The position numbers and the translations under genes are program-made. Below are positions 19,530 to 33,036 of a stretch of DNA of 64,000 bases, piece by piece. Each line of letters starts with the position of its first letter. The first letter of the stretch is position 1. The stretch is taken from positions 1,331 through 65,330 of the forward strand of contig JBAZRI010000003.1 in assembly GCA_041662965.1 (NCBI GenBank). Direction: 5' to 3'. The DNA is from Patescibacteria group bacterium. Its GTDB lineage: Bacteria; Patescibacteriota; Patescibacteriia; Patescibacteriales; GWC2-42-12. The notes below the pieces were generated by a model that saw only the letters and a program-made list of their open reading frames with translations, did no database searches and was not told where the DNA came from.

Positions 19530-19545
19530 AAAAATAATAAAAAAA

Positions 19546-19575
19546 CCCTCGCGATAAGCGGGGGTTTTGTTTTTA
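19546..19575 (+). terminator. rho-independent terminator of the rel gene
   Basis: Hairpin CCCTCGC-GATAA-GCGGGGG followed by TTTTGTTTTT. Confidence 0.7.
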
Positions 19576-19654
19576 AAATTAAAAAGCACTTAATAAAAAA
19601 TTAGAAATGGGCGCGGGAGGCTTTATACGGCCTCCCGCGAAAGAATGAACAGGA

Positions 19655-19831
19655 CTAGTAAACTAAATCCAAACTGAATAAATAATTACTGGGCATGCCT
19701 CCTCTTTGGATAAATTGCCCCCTTGTTATGCCCTTTTTTAAAACTTCGCAAATTTCTGCCGCATTTTCGTCATCTGCAGTTATTAACGTTTTTCCCTTTT
19801 CCGAAAAAAAACGTTCTTCTAAATCTCCCAT
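19655..19831 (-). CDS. small hypothetical protein (58 aa)
   Basis: ATG 19831 is preceded by AGGAGGAGG, a strong SD. An upstream TTGACA-17-TATTGT lies at about 19947-19919. A hairpin at 19611-19638 lies downstream. I recognised no motif. Confidence 0.4.
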   Translation of the reverse strand: MGDLEERFFSEKGKTLITADDENAAEICEVLKKGITRGQFIQRGGMPSNYLFSLDLVY

Positions 19832-20181
19832 AAGCACCTCCTCCTAAAGATTATTTTATTAGCCCAATTCTAATTTTTTATTATAAATTTTAAAGGACAA
19901 AATCCATAAATTAATAACTAAACAATAGTCTAAATTTTGCTGTTTGTCAATTATAATCCGGCCTAATTTTAGAGATAAATTTCAAACAAAACCGGAGATG
20001 CCTATCGCGTAATCTGCGCTGCGCCCGGAGACAGAACTGCGGCTAAAACAGCCGGCTCTTATGGCTCATGCCTACTCGCCCATTGGCTCATTTCCACCAT
20101 TTGAGCCATTAGCTTAAAACGATGGAGTTTTATTGGCATCCTTAATAAATTATTTCCTAGCGCCGGAATATAGGCGCATAT

Positions 20182-20529
20182 CTATAACTTATTATGCTTG
20201 GTATGTTTTCCTTTGGCTTTTTCAATCGGATATCTCCTGGCTGTTTCAATAAGTTTTTTTGGCAAAGCCAAGCTAATATTAATATTTAAATCATGCGACA
20301 TTAGTAAAACCCAATACAAAACATCTGCCAATTCGTCGGCTATTTCATTTTTATTTGTTTTTACATACTTTTCCATTTCTTGCTTATTTTTCCATTGAAA
20401 ATGCTCTAAAACCTCCGCCGCTTCCAACGCTAAAGATATAGCCATGTCTTTTGGATTGTGAAACTGTTTCCAGTCTCTTTCATCGCGAAATTTTATAACC
20501 TTTTTTGTTAACTCATTGATATCAGACAT
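20182..20529 (-). CDS. MazG-like all-alpha NTP pyrophosphohydrolase (DCTPP1/YpjD-like)
   Basis: FRDERDWKQFHNPKDMAISLALEAAEVLEHFQW and ADELADVLYWVLLMSHDLNI fit the MazG-type EExxE/D four-helix pattern. Confidence 0.8.
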   Translation of the reverse strand: MSDINELTKKVIKFRDERDWKQFHNPKDMAISLALEAAEVLEHFQWKNKQEMEKYVKTNKNEIADELADVLYWVLLMSHDLNINISLALPKKLIETARRYPIEKAKGKHTKHNKL

Positions 20530-20636
20530 ATTTTATAACTTATTTAAATTATATCTTATTTATCTTAGATTAAACCAAAATGCTTTTTTATATAATTTTC
20601 AACTTCTTTAATAATTTTTATATTATCAATTATCTA

Positions 20637-21251
20637 TTATCTGTTTAAATCTAGCAAAGCTATTTCAACCGGCGCGGAGCTAACGCCAAAATATTTTGCT
20701 ATCGGTCTGGCTAAATATTGATTAAGAATTTTTGGGTCTATTTCAGTTATTTTAATTTGATCTTCAGAAATAAATTGATTAATCACTTTTTTTCTAATTT
20801 CATATAATTGACCCCGAGGAATTAATAAAAAATTGGCAAAAATATGCGCTTGTGTTTCCATAAAATGGTATTGATCTCCCGGTATTTCATCATAAAACCT
20901 GTTAAAATCATCGGCATCGCTAATTCCAAATTGTTCATATAAATTTTTATGCAACGCCAAATGGCCGATTTCATGGGCATATGAAAATCTTAATCTATTA
21001 TTATTTTTATCTGCTTCAAATAAATCATAATCTACGCAAATCTGTTGCCAAGACGAAGTTATATAAGCATCAATATTAAACAATTTAAATAGGCCTGGCT
21101 TGAATATAATATCCATCCTTAAATTAACACTGATTATTTTTTCTATATCCACCGGAATTATGTCGTTCCAATATTTTTTTCTAAATAGCTCGGCGGCATC
21201 GGAAATTTCTCCCTTGGTTAGAAAGGGCACTTTAACGCTCTGAAAATTCAT
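20637..21251 (-). CDS. ImmA/IrrE-family zinc metallopeptidase
   Basis: HEXXH motif within YAHEIGHLALH. It lies 4 nt downstream of an XRE HTH gene, which is the canonical pairing. Confidence 0.8.
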   Translation of the reverse strand: MNFQSVKVPFLTKGEISDAAELFRKKYWNDIIPVDIEKIISVNLRMDIIFKPGLFKLFNIDAYITSSWQQICVDYDLFEADKNNNRLRFSYAHEIGHLALHKNLYEQFGISDADDFNRFYDEIPGDQYHFMETQAHIFANFLLIPRGQLYEIRKKVINQFISEDQIKITEIDPKILNQYLARPIAKYFGVSSAPVEIALLDLNR

Positions 21252-21255
21252 TTTT

Positions 21256-21636
21256 TTATTTATTATTTTTTATTAGCTTAAATAACGCCTCTATTTCTCG
21301 CTTGGTCGGCTTCTCGTCTCTCATAGTCCGAAAAAACGCCGGCAGAAGTTTAACTGTATCTGCGTCGGAAAGTATATCTTCCGGTATGATGCCTTGAGCG
21401 ATCGCAGCGCAGTCAATAAAATCATTCAGTTCTTTTTTATTTGGTAATAATCCAAATATTTTAGTCCACTTTATGAGAGTATTTTTATCCGAAGGCGGAG
21501 CCATTTTTCCTCTTTCAATTTTACTCCAATTACTAGGATCATAATCGGCTAATTTACATATTTCCCTTAGGCTAAGGTTTTTTTCAATTCTTAAATTTTT
21601 TAACAATTCGCCGAATTTTTGTAGATTTTTTTTCAT
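21256..21636 (-). CDS. XRE-family helix-turn-helix regulator
   Basis: LKNLRIEKNLSLREICKLADYDPSNWSKIERGK, an HTH_3-like motif. Confidence 0.75.
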   Translation of the reverse strand: MKKNLQKFGELLKNLRIEKNLSLREICKLADYDPSNWSKIERGKMAPPSDKNTLIKWTKIFGLLPNKKELNDFIDCAAIAQGIIPEDILSDADTVKLLPAFFRTMRDEKPTKREIEALFKLIKNNK

Positions 21637-21676
21637 TGATTCACCACCTCTCTAGTTTTTTAATTAATATTAAATA

Positions 21677-21715
21677 AGTGTGGTATTATTTTACCACACT
21701 TAAAAATATTGTCAA
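21677..21715 (-). promoter_or_regulatory. promoter plus palindromic operator of the XRE/ImmA pair
   Basis: On the minus strand, TTGACA (21715-21710), a 16 nt spacer, then TAAAAT (21693-21688). A 10 bp inverted repeat AAGTGTGGTA / TACCACACTT (21677-21701) spans the -10 box. GAGAGGTGGTGA precedes the ATG. Confidence 0.55.
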
Positions 21716-21725
21716 ATTGTTTTAC

Positions 21726-22538
21726 TTATTTACCACTTTTAATTTTTCTTACTTTTTCAGCCTTCTTTACCCTGGTATGCGCTTTGCCGATGCCGTCCGG
21801 CGTAGGTAAATTCTCCGGCATAGTGCCGCCCAAACCCTGAATGGTGTTTCTGACTTTTTGGCCGACTTCATAATGGGCCAGATTAGCGCTTGTCTCTCCT
21901 TTAATATTTTCTCGCCTGATTTTAGCGTCGGCCTGCGTGGCGCGAAACAGATTGGCCGCCAACTCTTCACTGCCCATATGGTCAAGAATATGCTGTGTCT
22001 TTTTAAGATTCTTGCGATTATGGATGTCTTGCATGGTAAGGCCGCCGTAAAGCCCTCTGTAGCCGTAATTTTGAAAAATCGCGTAATTTTCTACACCGGC
22101 GATTGAGGCCGCCTGGGTTAAGCTTACATTGTGTTTTTTCATCTGCTCTCGCAAAAATACGCGCTTATTATCCTCAATTAAATTATCCGTCTTTTCCTGC
22201 CGGCGGGTTTGGATGGCAAAATAGGTCTGCCCTTTGGCGACTACGACTTTTGTCGGATCTGAATTTTGCATGACAAGATAACAAGCGTAACGGGAAAGAT
22301 ATATGATTTCCACGGGTTTTTCCGCTCCTGACCCAATCTTAACCATTTCGTTAGCTTCAACGAAATGGTTGTGGATAACCTCACCGCTATTCCCGCAGGC
22401 AATTTTCGCCCTTTCTATAACTCCGAGAAAATTGCGATAATCCGTGTATTCCAGAACTTTAGCTAAGTCGCGCGACGACCAATATCCCTTGCCATTATTA
22501 TCAAGCCGTTTAATATCTTCAAATTGATTTTTACTCAT
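21726..22538 (-). CDS. dinD: DNA-damage-inducible protein D-like (Bro-N type N-terminal domain)
   Basis: 270 aa. I recall close similarity to E. coli DinD over FEDIKR...WSSRDLAKVLEY..YRNF..VIERAK.AC.NSG....HF.E...MVKIGSGA...SRYACYLV.QN.DP.K...A.GQTYFAIQTRRQE. Confidence 0.8.
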   Translation of the reverse strand: MSKNQFEDIKRLDNNGKGYWSSRDLAKVLEYTDYRNFLGVIERAKIACGNSGEVIHNHFVEANEMVKIGSGAEKPVEIIYLSRYACYLVMQNSDPTKVVVAKGQTYFAIQTRRQEKTDNLIEDNKRVFLREQMKKHNVSLTQAASIAGVENYAIFQNYGYRGLYGGLTMQDIHNRKNLKKTQHILDHMGSEELAANLFRATQADAKIRRENIKGETSANLAHYEVGQKVRNTIQGLGGTMPENLPTPDGIGKAHTRVKKAEKVRKIKSGK

Positions 22539-22569
22539 ATTATTAGTATTTCATTAAAATCTATTTATA

Positions 22570-22598
22570 ATTATATACGAACAAAATACGAAATTCAA
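22570..22598 (-). promoter_or_regulatory. candidate promoter of dinD with direct repeats
   Basis: On the minus strand, TTGAAT (22598-22593), 17 nt, then TATAAT (22575-22570). The spacer holds two TTCGTAT direct repeats (22592-22586 and 22581-22575). Confidence 0.45.
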
Positions 22599-22602
22599 TA
22601 AT

Positions 22603-24096
22603 TTAAATATTATTCTTAACCAAAAAATCTTTTAAAACCATAGTGGCCTTGCAATCATCTTCATTATATTCCAAAATTCTTTTTAATATTTTTTCATCTT
22701 TGGTTTTTAAATATTCATTATACCATTGTATTGATAAAGCGCCGGAGGGCGTTTCGTCCCGCCATTTGAATCCCAGATAGACGGCAATCTCTTTTATAGA
22801 ATAACTCCCTAGTGGCCAATCGGTGTGCTTATAAATTATATCCATATATAAATCAATAGTCTTCTCCCGCGCGAAAAAGTCTTCCAGCTCGTCTTCGCTC
22901 ACGACTTCTGGGTATGTCTGGCGCATTTTTTTATAAACCGTCTTTTCATAAGGCGAATAATAATAAACCGCGAAGTCATCTTTCGGTAAAGTTCTGATGT
23001 AATCCCAAAATTTTTGCCAGGCAATTTTTTCACCTTCTGCCGTATTGCTTTCGGCTACGAAGCTTAAAAACCTTTCTTTACCGTTTTTTCTTTCATACAC
23101 GCCGTGAAGATAGACTAAATTTTGCGTCGGGTCGGCTTCAATATCAAAAAATAATTCCGTGGAAACTTCGGGCAAATTAAGATGCTCATAAATAACCGGT
23201 TTTTTAGTATTGGCAACGATATTGGCTCGAATAATTATTTTTTCAATTGTTTTCTCGCCCACGCCCGGTAAAAACTTTTTATTAGCCTTTTTCCGCGCCG
23301 CGATAACCGCGATATCTAATTGTGCGATATCTTTTACGCTATTAACCCCTAGCTGTTCAACAATAACATCTCGCTTGCTTCGTCCCAAATAAAATATATT
23401 GGTTAAGTCGTCACTTTCCTTACACCACTTTTTACAGCTTAAATACCAAGGGCACAATTTGCAAATAGCCGAACTGGCCGGTAAATTCTGCTTTTTATTC
23501 TTTATTAGCGCATCCGCCTCTTCTTTTATTTCTTCATACGCTTCCCACCAAGTCTCGGGACTGCGAACACCCATCTTATCATCTAATTTATATTCCGCTT
23601 CTTTTTCGTTTATATCAATAATCAAACCTATATTGTTTTTGGCAAATCCTTTTTCTTTTAATAATCCAGCGTAAACGCATAATTGCACGGCGTAATGCTT
23701 TTTTAGCCTGCCTTCGCCATCTTCGCTCTCCCCCTCATAGCCCAATCCAGCCTTAATATCAATTGGCAAATAATTACCATCGGATTGTTTTCTTAATAAG
23801 TCTGGTATGCCCATTAAATTCTCGCCTTTTAAAACTCCCTGATATATTAATTCATCACCGCGCTTCATAGCTTCCATAGCTAAATCAGCGGCCCGATCAA
23901 ATCCAATTTTACTTAAATCCGTAAACCCACCCAGCTTGCTGACCACTTTCTTTTCATGCTGGACGCCCCGATCCCAAAGCAATTGAACGAACGGATTAGT
24001 TTCTTTAATTTTCTCCTCTTGCGGACCCCAAACATCCCGCCACACCCGATGTGGACATTGGAGATAATTATATAGCTTTGAAGCGGTTATGGACAT
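22603..24096 (-). CDS. Cas4/RecB-like PD-(D/E)xK nuclease with a C-terminal RNase H-like domain (TM0106-type)
   Basis: N-terminal Cys (YLQCPHR), PIDIKAG (D-x-K), QLCVY (QxxxY), and a CKLCPWYLSC Cys cluster typical of Cas4-type Fe-S nucleases. The C-terminus has FFDIEADP...YLHGV...YNEDDC, an RNase H-like exonuclease fold. Confidence 0.8.
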   Translation of the reverse strand: MSITASKLYNYLQCPHRVWRDVWGPQEEKIKETNPFVQLLWDRGVQHEKKVVSKLGGFTDLSKIGFDRAADLAMEAMKRGDELIYQGVLKGENLMGIPDLLRKQSDGNYLPIDIKAGLGYEGESEDGEGRLKKHYAVQLCVYAGLLKEKGFAKNNIGLIIDINEKEAEYKLDDKMGVRSPETWWEAYEEIKEEADALIKNKKQNLPASSAICKLCPWYLSCKKWCKESDDLTNIFYLGRSKRDVIVEQLGVNSVKDIAQLDIAVIAARKKANKKFLPGVGEKTIEKIIIRANIVANTKKPVIYEHLNLPEVSTELFFDIEADPTQNLVYLHGVYERKNGKERFLSFVAESNTAEGEKIAWQKFWDYIRTLPKDDFAVYYYSPYEKTVYKKMRQTYPEVVSEDELEDFFAREKTIDLYMDIIYKHTDWPLGSYSIKEIAVYLGFKWRDETPSGALSIQWYNEYLKTKDEKILKRILEYNEDDCKATMVLKDFLVKNNI

Positions 24097-24110
24097 TTAT
24101 TTTTATTTGT

Positions 24111-24452
24111 TTAGATAATTCCAAAGTGTTTCTTAAGATAACTTTCGACTTCTTTAATAATTTTTATATTTACCTCCCCTATTTTATGAATAAACCTTAA
24201 TTTATCATAGCTAATTATGTGATGTACTTTTATAATTGAATCTTCATATAATCTATTGCTAACGTCTTTTTTGATAAAAATATCATCTCTATGACGATTA
24301 CCGGAAGAAGATAACGGCATAATCGTAACTAAATTAACGGCGGTAATTAAATTATTAGCCATAATAATAAGCGCCGGACGGTCGTTATAATATTCGTGCC
24401 CAACGCTTTTTTCTTCGGCCAATTTAATCAACCAGATTTCCCCCTTTTTCAT
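24111..24452 (-). CDS. MazF/PemK-family endoribonuclease toxin
   Basis: 113 aa. KKGEIWLIKL...DRPALIIMAN...VTIMPLSS matches the PemK/MazF pattern (GdIw...RPvlVvs...vvPlTs). Confidence 0.8.
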   Translation of the reverse strand: MKKGEIWLIKLAEEKSVGHEYYNDRPALIIMANNLITAVNLVTIMPLSSSGNRHRDDIFIKKDVSNRLYEDSIIKVHHIISYDKLRFIHKIGEVNIKIIKEVESYLKKHFGII

Positions 24453-24454
24453 AT

Positions 24455-25189
24455 TTACTTAAGATTTTTATAATAATTAGCTGCCGCTTCCGAAATTGAA
24501 CCTAAAGCTTTAAGCGCGTCGCGGCCGGCGGCATCCTGCATGTCTTCAAACGAAGAAGTTTTAATTACATTTTTTATTAAACCATTAATCATATAATTAT
24601 CGTCAGCATGAATATAAATTGGTTTAAAATTTTCCGATGATTCGGAAACCAGCGCGATTTGATCCTCCCTTTTATCCCAAAAAAACTTTTTAATATTGGC
24701 ACATCCTTCAATAACCGATAGCACATAGTCGCCATTACGGGGATTTTTATTATCAGGATCAACTAAAACATAATCGCCATCTTCTATTGTCTGTACCCCA
24801 TTAACTTTGGCGCGGTTCATTGACGGCCCTTGAGCGCGTACTGCGAAAATATTTTTTACCTTGCCGATTAAGCGCCGCGATATTCTCAAATAGCCTTCTA
24901 AATTTTCCTCGGCAATAATTTTAGCTTCGCCGCAATCGGCTCCGCCGTAAATCGGCACGGCCACGATCTCGCTAACGCCCTGTTTTATTTCCGAATTAAT
25001 TAATCGCGCTTCACCGGTTTTTTTATCTATTTCAATAAATCCCTTTTTCTCTAATTGGCTTAAATGATGGCTGATTTTTTGCGGATGGCTTTCGTCAACC
25101 AATAAGCCAATATCTCTAAGGCTCATTTTTTCCATATTAATCTTAGAAACGATTTTTAATAGTTTTTCTTGTATGGGATGCAAATGCAT
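24455..25189 (-). CDS. LexA-like repressor (winged HTH + S24 peptidase) with a C-terminal extension
   Basis: N-terminus is LexA-type wHTH (MSLRDIG...ISHHLSQLEKKGFIE). S24 motifs are VPIYGGADCGE (cleavage-loop region), GPSM (Ser) and ANIKKF (Lys). About 45 aa follow the S24 fold. Confidence 0.8.
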   Translation of the reverse strand: MHLHPIQEKLLKIVSKINMEKMSLRDIGLLVDESHPQKISHHLSQLEKKGFIEIDKKTGEARLINSEIKQGVSEIVAVPIYGGADCGEAKIIAEENLEGYLRISRRLIGKVKNIFAVRAQGPSMNRAKVNGVQTIEDGDYVLVDPDNKNPRNGDYVLSVIEGCANIKKFFWDKREDQIALVSESSENFKPIYIHADDNYMINGLIKNVIKTSSFEDMQDAAGRDALKALGSISEAAANYYKNLK

Positions 25190-25219
25190 AAAATTTTATG
25201 ATTATTTATACTTATCCAC

Positions 25220-25248
25220 ATTATAGACTAAGAACAATGTTTTGTCAA
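25220..25248 (-). promoter_or_regulatory. consensus sigma70-type promoter of the lexA-like operon
   Basis: On the minus strand, TTGACA (25248-25243), 17 nt, then TATAAT (25225-25220). The spacer contains the small palindrome AACA-T-TGTT. Confidence 0.65.
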
Positions 25249-25275
25249 GTTTTTTATAATTACTCGTCAAGTCTC

Positions 25276-25304
25276 TTGACGGCTATTTCTATTTTTGCTA
25301 AAAT
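25276..25304 (+). promoter_or_regulatory. divergent promoter toward the DUF2188 gene
   Basis: TTGACG (25276-25281), 17 nt, then TAAAAT (25299-25304). The -35 box overlaps the GTCAAG-N3-CTTGAC palindrome at 25266-25280. The leader is about 140 nt and has two hairpins. Confidence 0.55.
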
Positions 25305-25453
25305 AATAAATAACCCTTAAAAATCAAAACGGGTTAGACCAATAAAGGCCTTACCCGCTTGAAAATGTGCGGCCGATTATCCGCACAAACGCTCTTAATA
25401 ATTAAAGGATAGCACATTCTCAATTTTTGGGGAATAATAATTAATTTATACTT

Positions 25454-25693
25454 ATGTTACCGAAATTTACACTTAGTCTGAATGACGAAAAAGATGTGTG
25501 GCAACTTAGAAACGATATGACAAACAGAGTTCTGAAAAACTTCGACACTAAGGGTGAAGCCTTAGAGGGTGGGGTTATGAAAGATTTGCTTGGGAACAAT
25601 GGTGGATCAGTAAAGATTCAAAAAGAAAACCACATATTCCAAGAAGAAAGGACATACCCTCGCAGCAAAGACCCTTCTGAATCCAAAGGTTAA
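25454..25693 (+). CDS. DUF2188-like small protein
   Basis: 79 aa. W.L.....R....F.TKGEAL......, then KIQKENHIFQEERTYPRSKDPSESKG, resembles the DUF2188 pattern (...I..E.tYG.DP.PpkG). Confidence 0.6.
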   Translation: MLPKFTLSLNDEKDVWQLRNDMTNRVLKNFDTKGEALEGGVMKDLLGNNGGSVKIQKENHIFQEERTYPRSKDPSESKG

Positions 25694-25705
25694 TAATCAT
25701 CAAAA

Positions 25706-25735
25706 ACAGGAAGCTCAAAGCTTCCTGTTTTTATT
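25706..25735. terminator. bidirectional terminator between the DUF2188 gene and the HEPN-like gene
   Basis: 9 bp stem ACAGGAAGC / GCTTCCTGT with a 5 nt loop, flanked by A5 upstream and T-runs downstream. Confidence 0.7.
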
Positions 25736-26477
25736 TTCCCTCTACCGCCCTTATCTCCTCCTCCCCCAGTCCATACAACTCATTAATTTCTTTTAATCGA
25801 TAAACTTCAAATCTTTTCAAATAATCTACAACCATTTTTGTTTTATCTTTAGTATCTATCTTCGCATTATCATATATTATATTAGTAGAAATTAATTTCG
25901 ATAAAAACATATCTATTATCTTTTCAATAATATTAAAAAGTTTCCTAATTTCCTCGCCGGTTATATTTATTTCATCTTTTTTTATATCATCGTGAGCGAG
26001 ATATTGATCGCGATAAGTTTTTAGTCGTTTAATAATTTCCTTATTTTTCTCAATGTCAGATTGGATTGCTAATATATCTTCATATTTTACGCCCTTATAT
26101 TCTCTAATAAGCATAGCGATAAAATTTGGATCTTGCCCTTGGCTATATTCTGCGAAGTCACTTACAGATAATTTGGCTATATTACTTTGCGTATAGTTAA
26201 TTATCTTCGTAACATGGAGTGAATTATCGGCAATATCAAAAAACTTAGCAAGCTCTAAAAAGAAATAAACACGCAGAGCTTCTTTTAAAGGGAGAAAAAA
26301 ACTACTAAAATCTTTTTCTATAATCTTCTTATTCTTTTCCAATGTGTCTTGCTCAACTGCACTGGGATCAACTAATTCAATAAGTGTTTCAAATATATGA
26401 AAAGCGGAGAGTGCCTTAAAATAACGACCCTCTATATTTTTTATATATGAAATTATCGTGTTAAATTCTTGACTCAT
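25731..26477 (-). CDS. HEPN-like protein (Rx5H motif), possibly AbiU2-like
   Basis: 248 aa, predicted all-helical by composition. Single R-DQYLA-H motif (YRDQYLAHDD). Its ATG overlaps the stop of the upstream R-M gene (TAATG). Confidence 0.5.
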   Translation of the reverse strand: MSQEFNTIISYIKNIEGRYFKALSAFHIFETLIELVDPSAVEQDTLEKNKKIIEKDFSSFFLPLKEALRVYFFLELAKFFDIADNSLHVTKIINYTQSNIAKLSVSDFAEYSQGQDPNFIAMLIREYKGVKYEDILAIQSDIEKNKEIIKRLKTYRDQYLAHDDIKKDEINITGEEIRKLFNIIEKIIDMFLSKLISTNIIYDNAKIDTKDKTKMVVDYLKRFEVYRLKEINELYGLGEEEIRAVEGK

Positions 26478-29173
26478 TATTTTTTAATAATATTAATCTC
26501 CTCTCCCGTCAACCCATACAGCTCATAAACTTTTTTATCAATTTCTTTATCCGTCTTTTCAATTTCTTCTTTTACCCCATTATATTCTTTATCGTCCATA
26601 ATCGGGTCTAATTTTTGCAGTTCTTTATTTTTTTCCAACATTTTGTCAACTAATTTCACTAATTCATCGTGTTTGGCTTTTTCATTTTTTTTCTTAAAAT
26701 CTATCTTATAAATCGGTATTTCTTTTAAATGATTTATCTTAATTTCTGCGAATAATTTTCCTTTGCGCGGTTGTATGGCTAAAAAATACCATGTACCTAA
26801 TAAAGAATTTAAAATTGCTAAAACATATTTCAAGCTAATCTGATTTTCTAAATTTTTATATAAAACGAAAAAATTATTGCTCGCATAAAAGTTTTCTTCG
26901 TCAATCGAAGCTATAATTCTATCTCCAGTTCTTCTCACTAATATTTTTTTATTAACAAAATATTCCTCTCTGCCCAAATTAGCATACTCCTTTTTATCTC
27001 TATCAATTATTTTTTTATCATATATGACATATTTACCCGCCCATTTTTTTGAATATCTATTAATTTCATTCCCTTTAAATAATAACTTCTTACAAAGTTC
27101 TGAGCTTGAAGAATCAATAAATAATTTTTTTCTTACATTACCAGAATGGATTCCTTCGTGTATCTCAAAATTTTTTCCTAAATTTGCAGAAACATCGTCT
27201 AGTTTTTGTTTTAATTTTAATATATTATCATCAAAATATAAGTTAAATTTATTATCTTTATTTTCTAAAAATATAATCTGTTTAATTTTTTTATTTTCAC
27301 TATTAACTATAACATTCATTAAATTGCTATCTCTTTTTATTTTGACTTTTTCTTTTCTTAAAATCATTACTACGGAATCTAAGTTTACCCCCGCGAAAGC
27401 CATTCCAGTATAATAAATATTGGTTATAATAAAATTATCTAAAATTATCTTTCTAATCAATGGATAATTTTTTAACAAAATAATATCAGGCAATATAAGC
27501 CCTAAAAAACCATCTTCTTTTAATAAATTAAAAGACTTCTCTATGAATAAAGCAAAGGTATCTACGATGCCACTACCTGCTATAAAATATTCTTTATAAT
27601 AATCCTTTTCTTCTTTAATAATTTCTGCACCCCATGGCGGATTACCGATTATCACGTCAAAACCTCCTTGTTTAAAAACCGGTTCAAATTTTTTCTGCCA
27701 ATTAAACGGCTTTTTTTCTTTATAATTTTCACCGAAATATTTTTTTAATTCCTCTTCTTTGCCCGAAATCAAAGAATTGCCGTTTTCTATATTATGGGCT
27801 AAATTAGGCAAAAGCTCTCTTTGCCCTAAGACTTTTAATAATAAATTCAATTGAGCGATTTCTACGGCTTCCTGATCTAAATCCACGCCATAAATATTTG
27901 AAGTTAAAATACTTACTTTTCTGGCATAATTTTTCATAATATCCGCGTCAAGCTCATTATTTTCTCTTTTAATATGGTTATCTAAAACTTCAAAGGCTTT
28001 AATTAAAAACGAGCCCGAACCGCAAGCCGGATCTAAAATTTTAATTTTCCCTGCCTCAAAACCTGACTTACCTTTTAATAATTCGCCCAAAGTATTTTTT
28101 ACGATGTAATCCACGATATATCTCGGAGTATAATAGATGCCCTGTGATTTTCTTTTGCCTGATTTTTTATCTTTTTCTTCCTGCTGAATCTGCCCTAAAT
28201 ATTGCTCATAAATACTGCCTAAAATATCGGCGTTGATAGAAGCGAAATCATAACGGATGCCTTTGGTGTTTTTATATAATTCTTTAATAATTCTTGCCAA
28301 TAGCTCATCTTCATATATAAGCGTATCGCAAATAGCCGGTAAAAATAATTTGCTGTTATAGCCGTCATTATAATCCCTAAATAATTTCTTCATTTCATCA
28401 GCCAAATTTAATTTGCCTTTGCCATCTTCCCAATTTCTAACGATTTCCCTTAACTTTTCGCCTTCAATTTTTCTGTCTTCGGTCGTCCTGATAAAAATCA
28501 GCCTGTCCAAAAGCCTTTGCACGCTCTCGGCAATTTGCTTATCGCTTAATTTTTTATCCCCGTTCCAGCCTTTTAAATCTTTAAACAGCAACGACCGCCA
28601 TTTTACCAAATCATCGGCTAATAATTTATCTACCGCTTCTTTTTTTGGTTTTTTAAAATTGGCTTCCGCGTATTTGTCTAAATCGCCTTTTAGCATTGAC
28701 TCTTTAGACAACCACCAAAGCTTTTCGTCTTTTAAATAATCTTTATAATTTATTTCAAAAATCAAGCTTCTCTCCGCGTCCGACTCGTCCCATTCGGCGT
28801 TATAAACTTTTATACCTTCAAAATCAGTTAAAATCGCCCAAGGCACGCTTTTATGCCAGGCATAAGAAATGGCTTGCTCGCCATGCTTAGCTTCCCTTAA
28901 ATCCACGCTTGGTTTTTTAGCCTCAACAAAAAATTTAATGACGTCATTAACATGAAAGGCGTAATCGGCGCGCCCGCCGGAAACCTGCGTTTCCGAAGTA
29001 ACTTCATGATTGGATATATTATTATAAACATCCCAGCCCAAAGCCTGAAATAAAGGCAAAATAAAATCCTTACAAGTCATTGACTCGTTTTTCTTCTTAA
29101 ATTCAGCCTCGGTTAAGGCGGTGAATTTATTTACCAGCCGCTCAATTTGTTTTTTAGCTTCTTGTTTATTCAT
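26477..29173 (-). CDS. Type IIG restriction-modification enzyme (fused PD-(D/E)xK nuclease and N6-adenine methyltransferase)
   Basis: N-terminus GRADYAF...FFVEAKKP (D...ExK). SAM motif I is ILDPACGSGSFL and motif IV is IIGNPPWG. A long C-terminal region is a putative target-recognition domain. Confidence 0.85.
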   Translation of the reverse strand: MNKQEAKKQIERLVNKFTALTEAEFKKKNESMTCKDFILPLFQALGWDVYNNISNHEVTSETQVSGGRADYAFHVNDVIKFFVEAKKPSVDLREAKHGEQAISYAWHKSVPWAILTDFEGIKVYNAEWDESDAERSLIFEINYKDYLKDEKLWWLSKESMLKGDLDKYAEANFKKPKKEAVDKLLADDLVKWRSLLFKDLKGWNGDKKLSDKQIAESVQRLLDRLIFIRTTEDRKIEGEKLREIVRNWEDGKGKLNLADEMKKLFRDYNDGYNSKLFLPAICDTLIYEDELLARIIKELYKNTKGIRYDFASINADILGSIYEQYLGQIQQEEKDKKSGKRKSQGIYYTPRYIVDYIVKNTLGELLKGKSGFEAGKIKILDPACGSGSFLIKAFEVLDNHIKRENNELDADIMKNYARKVSILTSNIYGVDLDQEAVEIAQLNLLLKVLGQRELLPNLAHNIENGNSLISGKEEELKKYFGENYKEKKPFNWQKKFEPVFKQGGFDVIIGNPPWGAEIIKEEKDYYKEYFIAGSGIVDTFALFIEKSFNLLKEDGFLGLILPDIILLKNYPLIRKIILDNFIITNIYYTGMAFAGVNLDSVVMILRKEKVKIKRDSNLMNVIVNSENKKIKQIIFLENKDNKFNLYFDDNILKLKQKLDDVSANLGKNFEIHEGIHSGNVRKKLFIDSSSSELCKKLLFKGNEINRYSKKWAGKYVIYDKKIIDRDKKEYANLGREEYFVNKKILVRRTGDRIIASIDEENFYASNNFFVLYKNLENQISLKYVLAILNSLLGTWYFLAIQPRKGKLFAEIKINHLKEIPIYKIDFKKKNEKAKHDELVKLVDKMLEKNKELQKLDPIMDDKEYNGVKEEIEKTDKEIDKKVYELYGLTGEEINIIKK

Positions 29174-29179
29174 GTTTTT

Positions 29180-29208
29180 ACTCTATCATTTCTCCGCTAA
29201 TATTTCAA
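29180..29208 (-). promoter_or_regulatory. promoter of the R-M gene; geometry implies a near-leaderless mRNA
   Basis: On the minus strand, TTGAAA (29208-29203), 17 nt, then TAGAGT (29185-29180). Only 6 nt separate the -10 box from the ATG at 29173. Confidence 0.55.
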
Positions 29209-29222
29209 CTTTGTTAAAATAC

Positions 29223-29251
29223 AAAAACACCGCGGCTAAAGCGGTGTTTTT
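29223..29251. terminator. bidirectional terminator downstream of 29264..29692
   Basis: Hairpin CACCGC-GGCTAAA-GCGGTG flanked by A5 and T5. Confidence 0.65.
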
Positions 29252-29263
29252 ATGCGGAATTAA

Positions 29264-29692
29264 TTATTTTTTGAATTTCTTATAAACCAGCAATCCACCT
29301 TGGGCTAAAAGCCAACCAACTGCGAAAAAACAAATCATTATTATCAAACTGCCGATATCTTCATTTTTTAAATATCTTAAATTTTCTGTTGCAATAATTA
29401 AAATAATGCCAATCCAAAATAATACCGTACCAATTATATAGACTGCCCAGGCGGTCTTTTGTTTTAATAATGAAAAAGCAAAAATTGCCAGCCAAAAAAT
29501 ATAAAAATAAATAAACCCCTCATAGTTGCAACCCTTATCTCCCATTTCTAATAAAAATAATCCGCCACCACAATGGGCATTCAATAAATTAATATGCAAA
29601 TATCCGCCTATTGGAGCTAAAATTAACGCTAAAATAACAGAACCGACATAAACTGACAAAATAATCAAAACATTTTTTAATTTTTGATTCAT
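29264..29692 (-). CDS. hypothetical integral membrane protein
   Basis: 142 aa with about 4 TM helices. It overlaps the upstream lipase-like gene by 4 nt. Confidence 0.55.
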   Translation of the reverse strand: MNQKLKNVLIILSVYVGSVILALILAPIGGYLHINLLNAHCGGGLFLLEMGDKGCNYEGFIYFYIFWLAIFAFSLLKQKTAWAVYIIGTVLFWIGIILIIATENLRYLKNEDIGSLIIMICFFAVGWLLAQGGLLVYKKFKK

Positions 29693-32460: not shown

Positions 32461-32490
32461 AAAATAATTAATAAAAATTATTATGCTTTA

Positions 32491-32519
32491 ATTATAGCAT
32501 AATTTATTTCCTCGTCCAA
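32491..32519 (-). promoter_or_regulatory. candidate promoter of the lipase-like operon
   Basis: On the minus strand, TTGGAC (32519-32514), 17 nt, then TATAAT (32496-32491). The palindrome ATTATGCT...AGCATAAT overlaps the -10 box. Confidence 0.5.
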
Positions 32520-32522
32520 CAC

Positions 32523-32557
32523 AAAAAAACACCCCCGATCGCTCGGAGGTGTTTTTT
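32523..32557. terminator. bidirectional terminator downstream of yqeY
   Basis: Hairpin CACCCCCGA-TCGC-TCGGAGGTG flanked by A7 and T6. Confidence 0.65.
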
Positions 32558-32569
32558 ATATATTTCAAC

Positions 32570-33019: not shown

Positions 33020-33036
33020 ACACAATTAAGAAATAA

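What the first reader, a model, noticed from the sequence alone, without database searches (positions are those of the whole stretch)
20182..29208. AT-rich island combining two protease-switch repressor modules, DinD, nucleases, MazG and R-M
Seen in sequence:
- Seven consecutive minus-strand genes run from 25189 to 20182: lexA-like, mazF-like, Cas4/RecB-like nuclease, dinD-like, XRE, ImmA/IrrE and MazG-like.
- These are followed by a DUF2188 gene and a HEPN-like + Type IIG R-M pair.
- This stretch is visibly more AT-rich than the flanking housekeeping genes (rel on one side, yqeY/rpsU/hisS further on). That is by eye, not computed.
- I saw no integrase, transposase or phage structural gene.

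Established knowledge: LexA (S24 self-cleavage) and XRE + ImmA/IrrE (metalloprotease cleaves the repressor, as in Bacillus ICEBs1 ImmR/ImmA and Deinococcus DdrO/IrrE) are both damage-responsive switches. DinD is an SOS gene in E. coli.

Inference: this is a horizontally acquired damage-response/defence island, unusual for a reduced genome.
Basis: partly seen in the sequence, partly recalled or inferred. Interest (0 to 1): 0.65.

Follow-up and report, generated by a model that had tools for sequence, protein, structure and literature searches.

The report
Mosaic defence island with LexA-MazF pair
A 13-kb patchwork of self-contained defence and DNA-damage-response gene cassettes sits in a variable hot spot of a tiny-genome (Patescibacteria) bacterium. 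Its most interesting piece is a LexA repressor with a portable toxin-neutralising tail that is always paired with a MazF toxin, so DNA damage may be able to arm the toxin directly.

Summary
All ten gene calls are confirmed, and GC is 0.338 in 20182-29208 against 0.417 elsewhere.

The insert is larger than reported, 19530-32570. In 49 of 80 relatives rel is followed within 400 nt by yqeY/rpsU-hisS-lepB. Other relatives carry different cargo at that site (R-M, AbiU2, a LexA/Y-polymerase operon), so it is a hot spot.

The island is a mosaic of autonomous cassettes, each found elsewhere in Patescibacteria. It is not a phage or ICE remnant.

New result: lexA and mazF are one module.
- This LexA is a long form of the Patescibacteria LexA, with a conserved 34-38 aa C-terminal tail.
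- All 14 distinct long forms with a readable downstream gene, the window's included, have MazF adjacent. In the scored comparison this was 9 of 9 long against 0 of 41 short (p = 4e-10).
- The same tail ends RelB-, Phd-, HicB-, XRE- and Panacea-type antitoxins, which sit next to the same MazF subfamily.
- The Ser/Lys dyad and a Cys-Gly cleavage site are invariant.

Inferred mechanism: a type II toxin-antitoxin pair whose antitoxin is a self-cleaving LexA, so damage or phage signals could release MazF.

XRE-ImmA is a separate cassette with its own operator. A mazF 3' remnant before mazG points to an ancestral lexA-mazF-mazG operon.

The parts
19542..19568 (+). Intrinsic terminator hairpin after rel; left edge of the inserted DNA
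   Evidence: 11-bp stem plus T run. Homology with empty-site relatives stops at about 19575.
19655..19831 (-). 58-aa ORF with a strong GGAGGAGG ribosome-binding site; no family match
   Evidence: A promoter-like site lies at 19950-19922.
19950..20181 (.). GC-richer non-coding spacer, unexplained
   Evidence: No Rfam hit. Fold z-scores are only -1.8 and -1.9.
20182..20529 (-). MazG-like NTP pyrophosphohydrolase
   Evidence: PF12643 1e-15; phrog_3301 pyrophosphatase.
20565..20624 (-). Remnant of a second mazF (last 19 codons plus stop, NIKIIKEVENYIKKHFGLI*), 36 nt upstream of mazG
   Evidence: A 73-nt direct repeat, 20552-20624 against 24098-24170, 78% identical. tblastn hit of MazF residues 101-113. 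Sequence read.
20637..21251 (-). ImmA/IrrE-type M78 zinc metallopeptidase (HEIGH)
   Evidence: (capP 2.6e-12). 60% identical to the copy in L001 at the same site.
21256..21636 (-). XRE-family HTH repressor, 4 nt upstream of immA
   Evidence: (capH 3e-5).
21675..21715 (-). xre promoter (TTGACA-16-TAAAAT, extended TG) overlapped by the palindrome TAAGTGTGGTA-N6-TACCACACTTA, the presumed XRE operator
   Evidence: only site in the window; identical palindrome upstream of xre in L001.
21726..22538 (-). DinD (Bro-N plus DinD C-terminal domain)
   Evidence: NF008573 367 bits; PDC-S13. 76-88% identical copies across Patescibacteria.
22570..22598 (-). dinD promoter (TTGAAT-17-TATAAT) with the conserved spacer TTCGTATTTTGTTCG; candidate SOS-type operator
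   Evidence: The same promoter and spacer precede a Y-family polymerase operon and a canonical lexA in L043, and a gene in L170.
22603..24096 (-). TM0106-family RecB-like nuclease (Cas4-like PD-(D/E)xK with four Cys, plus an RNase H-like 3'-5' exonuclease domain), 14 nt after mazF
   Evidence: TIGR03491 261 bits; PF13482, PF12705, PF01930.
24111..24452 (-). MazF/PemK endoribonuclease toxin
   Evidence: PF02452 2e-17. Kid and MazF7 are the nearest solved relatives. It belongs to the subfamily shared with other tail-type antitoxins.
24455..25189 (-). Long-form Patescibacteria LexA: wHTH, S24 domain (Cys86-Gly87, Ser123, Lys167) and a 34-aa C-terminal tail (24458-24559). Proposed antitoxin of MazF.
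25212..25280 (-). lexA promoter (perfect TTGACA-17-TATAAT, 25248-25220), flanked by the palindrome GTCAAGnnnCTTGAC (25266-25280) and by TGTGGATAA (25212-25220)
   Evidence: Both motifs recur upstream of Patescibacteria lexA genes. Each occurs exactly once in the window in intergenic DNA.
25454..25693 (+). DUF2188 protein (PADLOC PDC-S16)
25701..25733 (.). Bidirectional terminator between DUF2188 and abiU2
   Evidence: 14-15 bp stem on both strands.
25731..26477 (-). HEPN AbiU2-like protein (R-x5-H read in RDQYLAH); its start overlaps the IIG stop
   Evidence: PF18734 34.9 bits against a cut-off of 26.8; translation.
26477..29173 (-). Type IIG restriction-modification enzyme (N-terminal PD-(D/E)xK, NPPW N6-adenine methylase, TaqI_C specificity domain)
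   Evidence: 3e-112. 36-45% identical IIG enzymes lie next to lexA-mazF in L081 and L169.
29223..29260 (.). Terminator hairpin between the IIG gene and the 142-aa gene; most similar to the hairpin after rel in L001
29264..29692 (-). 142-aa polytopic membrane protein, no family
   Evidence: Absent from the rel flanks of all 80 relatives.
29689..32460 (-). 923-aa secreted alpha/beta-hydrolase (LCAT/PGAP1 lipase-like) with Ig-like domains. Part of the insert but not a defence gene.
   Evidence: Absent from the rel flanks of all 80 relatives.
32524..32560 (.). Ancestral rel/yqeY bidirectional terminator; right edge of the inserted DNA
   Evidence: Its 3' half is identical to the single hairpin of the empty-site relative L003.

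Best explanation
The region is a 13-kb mosaic that has built up in a recombination hot spot between the core genes rel and yqeY of a Falkowbacteria-like Patescibacteria genome. It consists of separately regulated cassettes drawn from a gene pool shared among Patescibacteria.

(1) P_lexA-lexA-mazF, read through into a TM0106 RecB-like nuclease.
- The LexA is a normal Patescibacteria LexA (winged HTH plus an S24 self-cleaving domain) that has gained a portable C-terminal segment, predicted at low-to-moderate confidence to form two helices.
- Inferred: this tail binds and neutralises the MazF encoded 2 nt downstream, so LexA is both the operon repressor and the antitoxin.
- Inferred: RecA-ssDNA filaments, formed after DNA damage or during phage replication or restriction, trigger cleavage at Cys86-Gly87. 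This lifts repression, and the tail-bearing fragment is then degraded. MazF is freed to cut RNA and arrest growth, while the co-transcribed nuclease processes DNA ends.

(2) dinD, under its own promoter with an SOS-type operator.

(3) xre-immA, a repressor and metalloprotease switch with its own palindromic operator. Read-through from it probably drives mazG.

(4) DUF2188.

(5) A translationally coupled Type IIG R-M enzyme and HEPN AbiU2 protein.

(6) A membrane protein and a secreted lipase-like protein.

A 60-nt mazF 3' remnant directly before mazG suggests an older lexA-mazF-mazG operon, comparable to E. coli mazEFG, that was split by the recB-dinD-xre-immA block.

Shown: the anatomy, the empty site, the cassette boundaries, the strict link between tail and MazF, the modularity of the tail, and the conserved catalytic residues. 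Inferred: tail-MazF binding, RecA-dependent cleavage, and toxin release.
For: Hot spot and insert.
- In 49 of 80 relatives yqeY or rpsU starts within 400 nt of rel. The closest relative, L001, has a different island at the site (xre-immA at 60-66% identity, then a Zn-ribbon, DnaJ-like and a 43%-identical IIG). Others carry 1-9 kb inserts, which include a DNA methylase (L018) and an AbiU2 protein (L039); L043 has a canonical LexA/Y-family polymerase cluster downstream of rel, but no yqeY/rpsU within the DNA held.
- Composition.

Cassette autonomy.
- Homology to L169, L170 and L081 covers exactly 25280-24117, that is promoter, lexA and mazF, at 77-84% nucleotide identity. The flanks are unrelated.
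- The xre-immA block, 20635-21721, is 72% identical in L001 and has an identical operator.
- The dinD promoter is shared with L170 and L043.
- Promoters and terminators.

LexA-MazF as one module.
- Gap of 2 nt in the window, and -21 to +7 nt in relatives.
- All 14 distinct long-tail LexA genes with a readable downstream gene (the window's own included) have PemK/MazF next to them, in different neighbourhoods: ftsZ/nrdR, prfA/sua5, recA, defence genes.
- Scored set: 9 of 9 long against 0 of 41 short, Fisher p = 4e-10.

Tail modularity.
- A 37-position profile of the tail alone finds 139 proteins (E <= 1e-3) among 1.84 billion.
- Every non-repetitive match lies in the last ~65 residues of its protein (most of these are proteins of only 40-70 aa); nearly all of the matches lie at or near the C-terminus of their protein, with exceptions at the N-terminus or mid-protein (P0198, P0243, P0260, P0291) and four long multi-stretch hits (P0240, P0254, P0276, P0296).
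- Those proteins are minimal peptides or have RelB, HicB-like, Phd-like, XRE, XRE+Panacea or LexA bodies. RelB, XRE and Panacea rest on Pfam hits; HicB-like and Phd-like were judged by eye from the sequence.
- The two non-LexA types I could look up are both followed by an overlapping PemK gene.
- Their MazFs are 44-50% identical to the window's and share the YLKKHF ending. MazE-paired MazFs in the same loci are only 30-33% identical.

LexA competence.
- Cys86, Gly87, Ser123 and Lys167 are invariant in 57 sequences. They align with E. coli Ala84-Gly85, Ser119 and Lys156, and E. coli LexA ends where the tail starts.
- The AF2 model (pLDDT 82.6) matches full-length LexA and LexA-RecA filament structures. 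The tail forms two helices at pLDDT 56-74.
- Operator motifs are shared with short-form lexA genes.

Precedent. C-terminal helices, not the globular Panacea domain, are predicted to neutralise Doc in a PanA antitoxin (PMC10440598).
Against: - No binding, cleavage or toxicity data exist, and no complex model could be made.
- The tail sits on the C-terminal fragment. Self-cleavage alone therefore would not detach it from MazF. Release needs degradation of that fragment, which is assumed by analogy with E. coli LexA.
- The cleavage site is Cys-Gly (UmuD type), not Ala-Gly. The protein scores below the TIGR00498 LexA cut-off (82.5 against 110.95).
- The tail has only moderate model confidence.
- No RecA gene lies in the window, although recA is adjacent to the pair in L169.
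- Read-through from mazF into the nuclease, and from immA into mazG, rests only on short gaps and the absence of predicted terminators.
- The mazF-mazG ancestry rests on one 73-nt repeat. In L177 the neighbouring MazG-like gene is convergent, not co-oriented.
- Whether this is the genome's only LexA is unknown, because only 64 kb were seen.
Confidence: 0.6

Rival explanations
1. The lexA-mazF-nuclease, dinD and mazG genes are the organism's own compact SOS regulon, which happens to lie in a variable region. The R-M/AbiU2 and xre-immA cassettes merely landed beside it. On this view MazF is an SOS growth-arrest effector, playing a SulA-like role, rather than an anti-phage device.
For: - LexA-long groups within the Patescibacteria LexA tree, and long and short forms are interspersed.
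- Its operators are shared with short-form lexA.
- In L083 and L086 the pair sits among housekeeping genes: ftsZ/nrdR and prfA/sua5.
- Repair-type genes recur beside it: PIF1, Ham1, recA, PDDEXK, RNase_H_2.
- The dinD promoter carries an SOS-type operator.
- dinD GC equals the genome level.
Against: - In this genome the genes lie inside DNA that is absent from the same site in 49 relatives.
- The ftsZ-downstream position used in L081 and L083 is occupied by another gene here, so the module has moved.
- IIG R-M enzymes accompany it in three genomes.
- This reading is compatible with the toxin-antitoxin mechanism. It differs mainly in the biological purpose assigned to MazF.
Confidence: 0.25
2. 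LexA-long is an antitoxin that uses the LexA fold only as a DNA-binding and dimerisation scaffold. It does not self-cleave in vivo, and MazF is released by ordinary Lon/Clp turnover, as in classical type II systems.
For: - The tail is interchangeable with RelB, Phd, HicB and XRE bodies that have no protease function.
- It falls below the LexA equivalog cut-off.
- The cleavage site is not the canonical Ala-Gly.
Against: - Cys-Gly, Ser123 and Lys167 are invariant across 57 long and short forms.
- Cys-Gly is the functional site of UmuD (established knowledge).
- The model superposes on LexA in RecA-filament complexes.
Confidence: 0.15
3. The tail has a LexA-related role, such as oligomerisation or co-repressor binding, and MazF is merely a LexA-repressed gene that needs no protein antitoxin or uses an unseen one.
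For: - The tail is predicted as free helices with modest confidence.
- No direct interaction data exist.
Against: - The tail occurs on unrelated antitoxin bodies and as stand-alone mini-proteins.
- Both non-LexA types I looked up are again followed by the same MazF subfamily, with 4-nt overlaps.
- No other antitoxin candidate lies beside mazF in the window.
- 0 of 41 tail-less LexA genes have MazF.
Confidence: 0.05
4. The region is a decayed prophage, an ICE or integrative element, or an assembly or binning chimera.
For: - XRE/ImmA and LexA/CI-like repressors, Bro-N proteins and MazG are common in phages and ICEs (PHROGs hits).
- GC is low.
Against: - No integrase, recombinase, conjugation, capsid, tail or terminase genes, and no tRNA.
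- No relatives of ImmA or LexA in 2.9 million viral contigs, and only one distant DinD.
- No phage or plasmid nucleotide match.
- Both flanks are collinear with relatives up to the junctions, and L001 has a related island at the same site, which argues against a chimera.
Confidence: 0.05

Closest known systems
MazEF / PemIK (Kis-Kid) type II toxin-antitoxin systems, including the E. coli mazE-mazF-mazG operon
   Same: - A PemK/MazF-fold toxin directly downstream of, and translationally coupled to, a DNA-binding protein whose C-terminal segment is the likely neutralising element.
- A MazG pyrophosphohydrolase lies downstream of a mazF remnant.
   Different: - The antitoxin body is a full LexA (wHTH plus S24 protease), not an AbrB/SpoVT-type MazE or an RHH. 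No MazE Pfam hit was found.
- The tail motif (W/M)Q-x-A-x-G-x-D-x-LK-x-LG-x-x-SK-x-E-x-x-YY-x-NL matches no Pfam family.
- It is absent from the antitoxin of the nearest plasmid-borne MazF, in Campylobacter.
LexA / UmuD / lambda CI family of RecA-stimulated self-cleaving S24 proteins
   Same: - Fold, Ser-Lys dyad and cleavage-loop position.
- Autoregulatory promoter with a palindromic operator.
   Different: - Cys-Gly site, as in UmuD, instead of Ala-Gly.
- A 34-aa C-terminal extension with no counterpart in solved LexA structures.
- An obligatory MazF partner.
- Below the TIGR00498 cut-off.
PanA (Panacea-domain) antitoxins with C-terminal neutralising helices ('Phd-C'), NetFlax network (PMC10440598)
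   Same: - A portable pair of C-terminal helices does the neutralising, while the N-terminal body is exchangeable.
- XRE-Panacea proteins carrying this very tail, next to MazF, were found here.
   Different: - Here the exchangeable body is a LexA repressor/protease.
- The paper does not mention LexA or S24.
ImmR/ImmA (ICEBs1), CapH/CapP (CBASS regulators), DdrO/IrrE (Deinococcus)
   Same: - An adjacent XRE repressor and M78 HExxH metallopeptidase.
- A palindromic operator over the repressor's own promoter.
- PADLOC capP/capH are the best matches.
   Different: - No ICE, CBASS or other obvious effector operon under the operator, and only one operator in the window.
- Homologous pairs stand alone beside miaB in other Patescibacteria.
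- The downstream gene varies: mazG here, a Zn-ribbon in L001.
Defence islands / integration hot spots flanked by core genes
   Same: - Variable defence, toxin-antitoxin and R-M cargo between two conserved core genes across related genomes.
- Low GC and no dedicated integrase.
   Different: - Described here for a Patescibacteria lineage.
- The cargo includes the lineage's LexA.
- The insertion mechanism is unknown. Homologous recombination through the flanks is only inferred.
MmeI/Eco57I-type Type IIG R-M enzymes
   Same: Single-polypeptide nuclease, N6-adenine methylase and TaqI_C specificity domain.
   Different: - Translationally coupled to a HEPN AbiU2 protein.
- Repeatedly linked to lexA-mazF in the closest clade: window, L081, L169.

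Membership tests
Type II toxin-antitoxin system (MazF/PemK toxin class) | Toxin with a PemK/MazF fold | tested here: met
   PF02452 1.8e-17, covering 109 of 109 profile positions. Kid and MazF7 are the nearest solved chains.
Type II toxin-antitoxin system (MazF/PemK toxin class) | Antitoxin gene immediately upstream, same strand, tightly coupled, with the pairing conserved across genomes | tested here: met
   Gap of 2 nt here, and -21 to +7 nt in relatives. All 14 distinct long-tail LexA genes with a readable downstream gene (window included) have it; the scored set was 9/9 against 0/41.
Type II toxin-antitoxin system (MazF/PemK toxin class) | Antitoxin made of a DNA-binding module plus a separable toxin-binding segment | tested here: met
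   The tail profile finds the segment on RelB, Phd-like, HicB-like, XRE, Panacea and LexA bodies, at or near the C-terminus in nearly all of the 139 hits. Two of these architectures were checked and both are next to PemK.
Type II toxin-antitoxin system (MazF/PemK toxin class) | Direct protein-protein neutralisation and toxicity of the free toxin | not testable with these tools
   Needs co-expression or pull-down.
MazE (AbrB/SpoVT-type) antitoxin | MazE_antitoxin/SpoVT-AbrB domain | tested here: not met
   No PF04014 hit. The upstream protein is S24/LexA-like.
LexA repressor (TIGR00498 equivalog) | Score above the curated equivalog cut-off | tested here: not met
   82.5 bits against 110.95. LexA_DNA_bind scores 22.4 against 23.7.
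LexA repressor (TIGR00498 equivalog) | N-terminal winged HTH plus C-terminal S24 fold | tested here: met
   The AF2 model matches full-length T. maritima and E. coli LexA at Foldseek E = 2e-13.
LexA repressor (TIGR00498 equivalog) | Ser-Lys catalytic dyad and a scissile bond in the cleavage loop | tested here: met
   Ser123 and Lys167 are invariant. Cys86-Gly87 is invariant and aligns with E. coli Ala84-Gly85. The residue pair is the UmuD type, not Ala-Gly.
LexA repressor (TIGR00498 equivalog) | RecA-stimulated self-cleavage and control of an SOS regulon | not testable with these tools
   Only autoregulatory motifs were found upstream of lexA. No other copy lies in the 64-kb window.
ImmR/ImmA - CapH/CapP - DdrO/IrrE repressor/protease switches | Adjacent XRE HTH repressor and M78 metallopeptidase with HExxH | tested here: met
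   PF12844 and PF06114. capH/capP are the best PADLOC hits. HEIGH was read in the translation. The gap is 4 nt.
ImmR/ImmA - CapH/CapP - DdrO/IrrE repressor/protease switches | Control of an associated element or effector operon (ICE genes, CBASS, radiation regulon) | tested here: inconclusive
   There is one operator, at its own promoter. Only mazG lies downstream. Homologous pairs stand alone in other genomes.
DinD (NF008573) | Full-length match above the equivalog cut-off | tested here: met
   367.2 bits against 242, positions 10-281 of 288.
Type IIG restriction-modification enzyme | Fused nuclease, gamma-class N6-adenine methylase and specificity domain | tested here: met
   HSDR_N, N6_Mtase/Eco57I and TaqI_C. 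PADLOC REase_MTase_IIG 3e-112. NPPW and D...EAK were read in the translation.
Genomic island | Absent from the orthologous site in relatives, with deviant composition | tested here: met
   Site compact (next gene within 400 nt of rel) in 49 of 80 relatives. GC 0.347 against flanks of 0.439 and 0.409.
Genomic island | Integrase, tRNA target, or flanking direct repeats | tested here: not met
   No integrase and no tRNA. The three terminator-like hairpins are similar but are not a clean duplication.
Prophage / ICE | Structural, packaging, conjugation or recombinase genes | tested here: not met

The most novel reading that the evidence does not exclude
In a sizeable group of Patescibacteria, the master SOS repressor itself has become the antitoxin of a MazF toxin by capturing a portable MazF-binding tail. 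RecA-triggered LexA self-cleavage would then both derepress the SOS genes and release an RNase. That would be a hard-wired link from DNA damage, or from phage DNA cut by the neighbouring Type IIG enzyme and resected by the co-transcribed RecB-like nuclease, to growth arrest or abortive infection. It would be the first toxin-antitoxin pair whose antitoxin is inactivated by signal-dependent autoproteolysis rather than by housekeeping proteases.
Probability: 0.35. Interest if true: 0.75.

Novelty: new variant of a known kind. Interest (0 to 1): 0.58.

Why it matters
The trigger problem. How type II toxins are released is a long-standing question: what signal removes the antitoxin? A LexA-bodied antitoxin would offer a system in which the trigger (RecA-ssDNA), the cleavage chemistry (Ser/Lys on Cys-Gly) and the read-out (MazF RNase) are all predictable and testable in E. 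coli or in vitro.

Portable antitoxin parts. The result also defines a portable MazF-neutralising peptide found on at least six antitoxin architectures. This extends the 'exchangeable body, portable C-terminal helices' picture of antitoxin evolution.

Patescibacteria biology. Even sub-megabase genomes keep a defence and accessory hot spot between core genes. They shuffle self-contained regulatory cassettes without any integrase that I could detect. Their LexA has unusual operators and partners.

Tried and rejected
- Rfam search of 18-34 kb at E <= 1: only weak terminator-like leader hits at the hairpins, none near gathering score.
- tRNA or tmRNA as an integration target: none in 64 kb.
- Clean direct repeats or a target-site duplication at the island ends. 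The three hairpins (19540-19575, 29223-29260, 32524-32560) share A-run/stem/T-run architecture, but only the right one clearly matches the ancestral terminator. I do not claim an att duplication.
- GC-richer spacer 19950-20181 as a structured RNA: z = -1.8 and -1.9, not convincing.
- Pfam scan of the tail alone: no family, even at E <= 10.
- Viral-contig scans for ImmA and LexA relatives found none. DinD gave one distant hit. Megablast of the 13-kb insert against phages and plasmids gave no match.
- Second lexA or mazF in the window: none, apart from the 13-codon-detectable mazF remnant.
- LexA-type motifs (TGTGGATAA, GTCAAGnnnCTTGAC) or the XRE palindrome elsewhere in the island as evidence of a regulon: no further sites above chance.
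- The nearest MazF on a cultivated-organism plasmid (Campylobacter, 39% identity) has an RHH-like antitoxin without the tail, so it is no help for naming.
- Literature searches for LexA-like, S24, self-cleaving or autoproteolytic antitoxins, and for Patescibacteria + LexA + toxin-antitoxin, returned nothing relevant. One in-silico Campylobacter paper mentions an S24-LexA-like domain in a TADB Xre/HipA prediction and itself calls this speculative.
- A complex (multimer) prediction of LexA-long with MazF was not possible with the tools.

Full report
ORGANISM AND OBSERVATION

The window comes from a Patescibacteria (CPR) genome close to Falkowbacteria-type MAGs. Its Rel protein is 93% identical to that of MAG CAZGKM01 and 64-90% identical to those of 79 further Patescibacteria loci.

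- MazG-like, 20182-20529.
- ImmA/IrrE M78 peptidase, 20637-21251.
- XRE repressor, 21256-21636.
- DinD, 21726-22538 (NF008573, 367 bits; PADLOC PDC-S13).
- TM0106-family RecB-like nuclease with a Cas4-like N-terminal half and an RNase H-like exonuclease C-terminal half, 22603-24096.
- MazF/PemK, 24111-24452.
- LexA-like S24 protein, 24455-25189.
- DUF2188, 25454-25693 on the other strand.
- HEPN AbiU2 protein, 25731-26477.
- Type IIG restriction-modification enzyme, 26477-29173.

The AT-richness seen by eye is real. GC is 0.338 against 0.417, and gene GC3 is 0.334 against 0.438 with p = 5e-4. None of the 330 windows of 9 kb outside the insert falls below 0.377. It is not uniform, though. The xre-immA-mazG and abiU2-IIG blocks are at 0.31, the lexA-mazF-nuclease block at 0.37, and dinD at 0.44, which is the genome level.

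No integrase, transposase, phage structural gene or tRNA is present.

THE EMPTY SITE AND THE TRUE EXTENT

I fetched 80 loci around rel homologues and mapped the window's proteins onto them.
- In 49 of them yqeY or rpsU starts within 400 nt of the rel stop, followed by hisS and lepB.
- In the window rel ends at 19529 and yqeY starts at 33025.
- Nucleotide homology to the empty-site relatives stops at about 19575 on the left and resumes at 32524 on the right.

The inserted DNA is therefore about 13 kb (19530-32570), not 9 kb. It also holds a 58-aa ORF with a strong ribosome-binding site, a 230-nt GC-richer spacer, a 142-aa membrane protein and a 923-aa secreted lipase-like protein.

The site is a hot spot.
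- The closest relative, L001, has a different 6.5-kb island there. It begins with a 60-66% identical xre-immA pair and ends with a 43%-identical Type IIG enzyme.
- Other relatives hold a DNA methylase (L018), an AbiU2 HEPN protein (L039), two small genes at GC 0.24 (L004) or further unrelated cargo; L043 has a canonical LexA with a Y-family polymerase operon downstream of rel, though no yqeY/rpsU lies within the DNA held for that locus.

A terminator-like hairpin occurs at both edges and once inside the insert. Only the right copy clearly matches the single ancestral hairpin, so I do not read this as an att duplication.

A MOSAIC OF AUTONOMOUS CASSETTES

The island is not one unit.

lexA-mazF cassette.
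- Homology to three other contigs (L169, L170, L081; 77-84% nucleotide identity) covers exactly 25280-24117, that is the lexA promoter, lexA and mazF. It ends there, and the flanks are unrelated.

xre-immA cassette.
- The block 20635-21721 is 72% identical in L001.
- It has its own promoter (TTGACA-16-TAAAAT), overlapped by an 11-bp-arm palindrome, TAAGTGTGGTA-N6-TACCACACTTA. This palindrome is unique in the window and identical in L001.
- Homologous xre-immA pairs stand alone beside miaB in other Patescibacteria. The pair is therefore a self-contained switch, and the downstream gene varies: mazG here, a zinc-ribbon protein in L001.

dinD cassette.
- dinD has its own promoter (TTGAAT-17-TATAAT).
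- The spacer, TTCGTATTTTGTTCG, recurs together with the hexamers in front of a Y-family polymerase operon and a canonical lexA in L043, and in L170. This marks it as a likely damage-inducible promoter.

abiU2-IIG cassette.
- The IIG and abiU2 genes overlap by one base and end at a bidirectional terminator.

Gene pool.
- DinD homologues are 76-88% identical across many Patescibacteria classes. One lies elsewhere on the contig of a relative whose rel-yqeY site is empty.
- No viral relatives of ImmA or LexA were found, and the insert has no phage or plasmid nucleotide match.

LEXA AND MAZF ARE ONE MODULE

The LexA-like protein has 712 homologues at E <= 1e-10, essentially all of them Patescibacteria LexA. 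They come in two forms:
- A short form of about 210 aa, which ends a few residues after the last S24 strand.
- A long form of 239-249 aa, with a conserved 34-38 aa tail, (W/M)Q-x-A-x-G-x-D-x-LK-x-LG-x-x-SK-x-E-x-x-YY-x-NL.

The window's protein is a long form, and its stop codon lies 2 nt from the mazF start.

Association with MazF.
- I read the neighbourhoods of seven long forms (51-90% identical to the window's) by exact look-up, and those of 80 further lexA loci from a metagenome scan.
- All 14 distinct long-tail LexA genes with a readable downstream gene (the window's own included) have a PemK/MazF gene directly downstream on the same strand, with a gap of -21 to +7 nt.
- No short-tail LexA does. 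In the de-duplicated scored set the counts are 9 of 9 against 0 of 41, Fisher p = 4e-10.
- The pair lies in quite different surroundings: between ftsZ and nrdR, after prfA, facing recA, or among defence genes. In the window the ftsZ-downstream position is taken by another gene. The pair moves as a unit.

THE TAIL IS A PORTABLE MAZF-LINKED ELEMENT

A profile of the tail alone (37 positions) was searched against 1.84 billion representative proteins.
- It found 139 proteins at E <= 1e-3, and 16 at E <= 1e-10. In nearly all of them the match lies at or close to the C-terminus; a few carry it at the N-terminus or mid-protein (P0198, P0243, P0260, P0291), and four long proteins match only as short multi-stretch hits.
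- Reading 24 of them shows minimal 45-70 aa proteins, RelB/RHH, HicB-like, Phd/YefM-like, XRE, and XRE-plus-Panacea bodies, and LexA fragments. RelB, XRE and Panacea are backed by Pfam hits; the HicB-like and Phd-like labels come from reading the sequences.
- I could look up two non-LexA architectures, RelB+tail and XRE-Panacea+tail, the latter on three contigs. Each is followed by a PemK gene that overlaps it by 4 nt.
- Those MazFs are 44-50% identical to the window's and share its YLKKHF ending. MazE-paired MazFs in the same loci are only 30-33% identical.

This is the pattern expected of an exchangeable toxin-neutralising segment. It parallels the C-terminal helices that, rather than the Panacea domain, are predicted to neutralise Doc in a PanA antitoxin (PMC10440598).

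IS THE LEXA BODY STILL A LEXA?

- The AlphaFold2 model (mean pLDDT 82.6) has a winged HTH and an S24 beta core. It matches full-length T. maritima and E. coli LexA and LexA bound to RecA filaments, at Foldseek E down to 2e-13.
- In a 57-sequence alignment Cys86, Gly87, Ser123 and Lys167 are invariant. They align with E. coli Ala84-Gly85, Ser119 and Lys156. E. coli LexA ends where the tail begins.
- Cys-Gly is the cleavage site of UmuD (established knowledge).
- The tail is modelled as two helices (211-229, 234-241) at pLDDT 56-74. That would be expected of a segment that folds on a partner, but it is weak evidence.
- The lexA promoter is a perfect TTGACA-17-TATAAT. It is flanked by the palindrome GTCAAG-N3-CTTGAC and by TGTGGATAA. 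Both motifs recur upstream of long- and short-form lexA genes.
- A neighbour-joining tree of the LexA core puts the long forms in at least two clades, interspersed with short forms. The tail (and, from the strict tail-MazF link, presumably MazF with it) seems to have been gained or lost more than once on an otherwise orthologous LexA. The tree has no support values.

MECHANISM

Shown:
- The anatomy and the coupling of the genes.
- The strict and portable tail-MazF association.
- The conserved protease residues and the autoregulatory motifs.

Inferred:
- LexA-long represses its operon and holds MazF inactive through the tail.
- RecA-ssDNA filaments, arising from damage, from phage replication, or from DNA cut by the neighbouring IIG enzyme and resected by the co-transcribed RecB-like nuclease, stimulate cleavage at Cys86-Gly87.
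- Repression is lost, the tail-bearing fragment is degraded as LexA fragments are in E. coli, and MazF arrests growth.

The weak point is that the tail stays on the C-terminal fragment. Release therefore depends on an assumed degradation step.

A 73-nt repeat shows the last 19 codons of a second mazF sitting 36 nt before mazG. This suggests an earlier lexA-mazF-mazG arrangement, like E. coli mazEFG, that was later split by the 3.5-kb nuclease-dinD-xre-immA block. This rests on one repeat.

COMPARISON, NOVELTY AND VERDICT

Each part is a member of a known family: MazF, LexA/S24, XRE-ImmA, DinD, IIG R-M, HEPN AbiU2, MazG. A core-gene-flanked defence hot spot is also a known kind of thing.

What I did not find in the searched literature is a LexA-bodied antitoxin. 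I also found no family for the tail itself in Pfam.

Rating:
- The island: a new member of a known kind.
- The LexA-tail/MazF module: a new variant of a known kind.

Its interpretation is partly supported. This is accessory DNA in a hot spot and it mixes defence with damage response. But it is a mosaic of modules common in Patescibacteria rather than a single foreign acquisition. The two 'protease switches' also differ in standing: one is a widespread stand-alone XRE-ImmA pair, and the other is the lineage's LexA turned toxin partner.

Noticed in passing
window 22570-22598; L043 17331-17345 and about 15200-15214; L170 4316-4330: The dinD promoter carries the spacer TTCGTATTTTGTTCG, a TTC-N8-TTC direct repeat reminiscent of the alphaproteobacterial GTTC-N7-GTTC LexA box. 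The same promoter and spacer precede a Y-family polymerase operon and a canonical (non-CPR-type) lexA in L043. It may be the SOS box of a second, canonical LexA type in Patescibacteria.
   Followed up: partly
upstream regions of about 70 lexA loci (L084-L168) and window 25212-25280: Patescibacteria lexA genes share upstream motifs not known to me as LexA boxes: repeated TTGTCAA/TTGACAA (here the palindrome GTCAAGnnnCTTGAC) and CTGTGGATAAC near the -10 element. These are candidate operators of the CPR LexA family.
   Followed up: partly
window 19950-20181: A GC-richer 230-nt stretch with no ORF between the 58-aa ORF and mazG. It has no Rfam hit and only a marginal folding z-score. Its origin is unknown.
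   Followed up: partly
window 19655-19831 (-): A 58-aa ORF (MGDLEERFFSEKGK...) with a GGAGGAGG ribosome-binding site and a promoter-like site. It matches no family and is probably a real small gene at the island's left edge.
   Followed up: no
DinD homologues, e.g. P0301 on the L011 contig: DinD is 76-88% identical across distant Patescibacteria classes. This is far more conserved than Rel among close relatives (64-70% in most of the 80 loci), which suggests strong constraint and/or frequent exchange within the phylum.
   Followed up: no
L081 4121-6997, L169 776-3493, window 26477-29173: Type IIG R-M enzymes that are only 36-45% identical to each other sit just upstream of lexA-mazF in three genomes of the closest clade. 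L170 keeps a 97-nt stretch similar to the IIG 3' end in the same position. This is a recurrent R-M/LexA-MazF linkage with changing specificity.
   Followed up: partly
window 29689-32460 and 29264-29692: A 923-aa secreted LCAT/PGAP1-type lipase-like protein with Ig and FIMAH domains, plus an overlapping 142-aa membrane protein, are also part of the insert. They are absent from the rel flanks of all 80 relatives and may be a host-interaction factor.
   Followed up: partly
window 15832-16230 (-): A low-GC (0.318) stand-alone GIY-YIG nuclease gene lies between two large surface-protein genes, outside the island. It may be a homing-endonuclease-like insertion.
   Followed up: no
L174 2863-6729: One Parcubacteria contig has two tandem XRE-ImmA pairs followed by an XRE-Panacea protein. 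This is a stack of repressor/protease and antitoxin-type modules.
   Followed up: no
tail-profile hits P0161-P0299: Many hits are 40-70 aa proteins made of little more than the tail. They may be minimal, DNA-binding-free MazF antitoxins, or they may be mis-called fragments. Their contexts were not examined.
   Followed up: no
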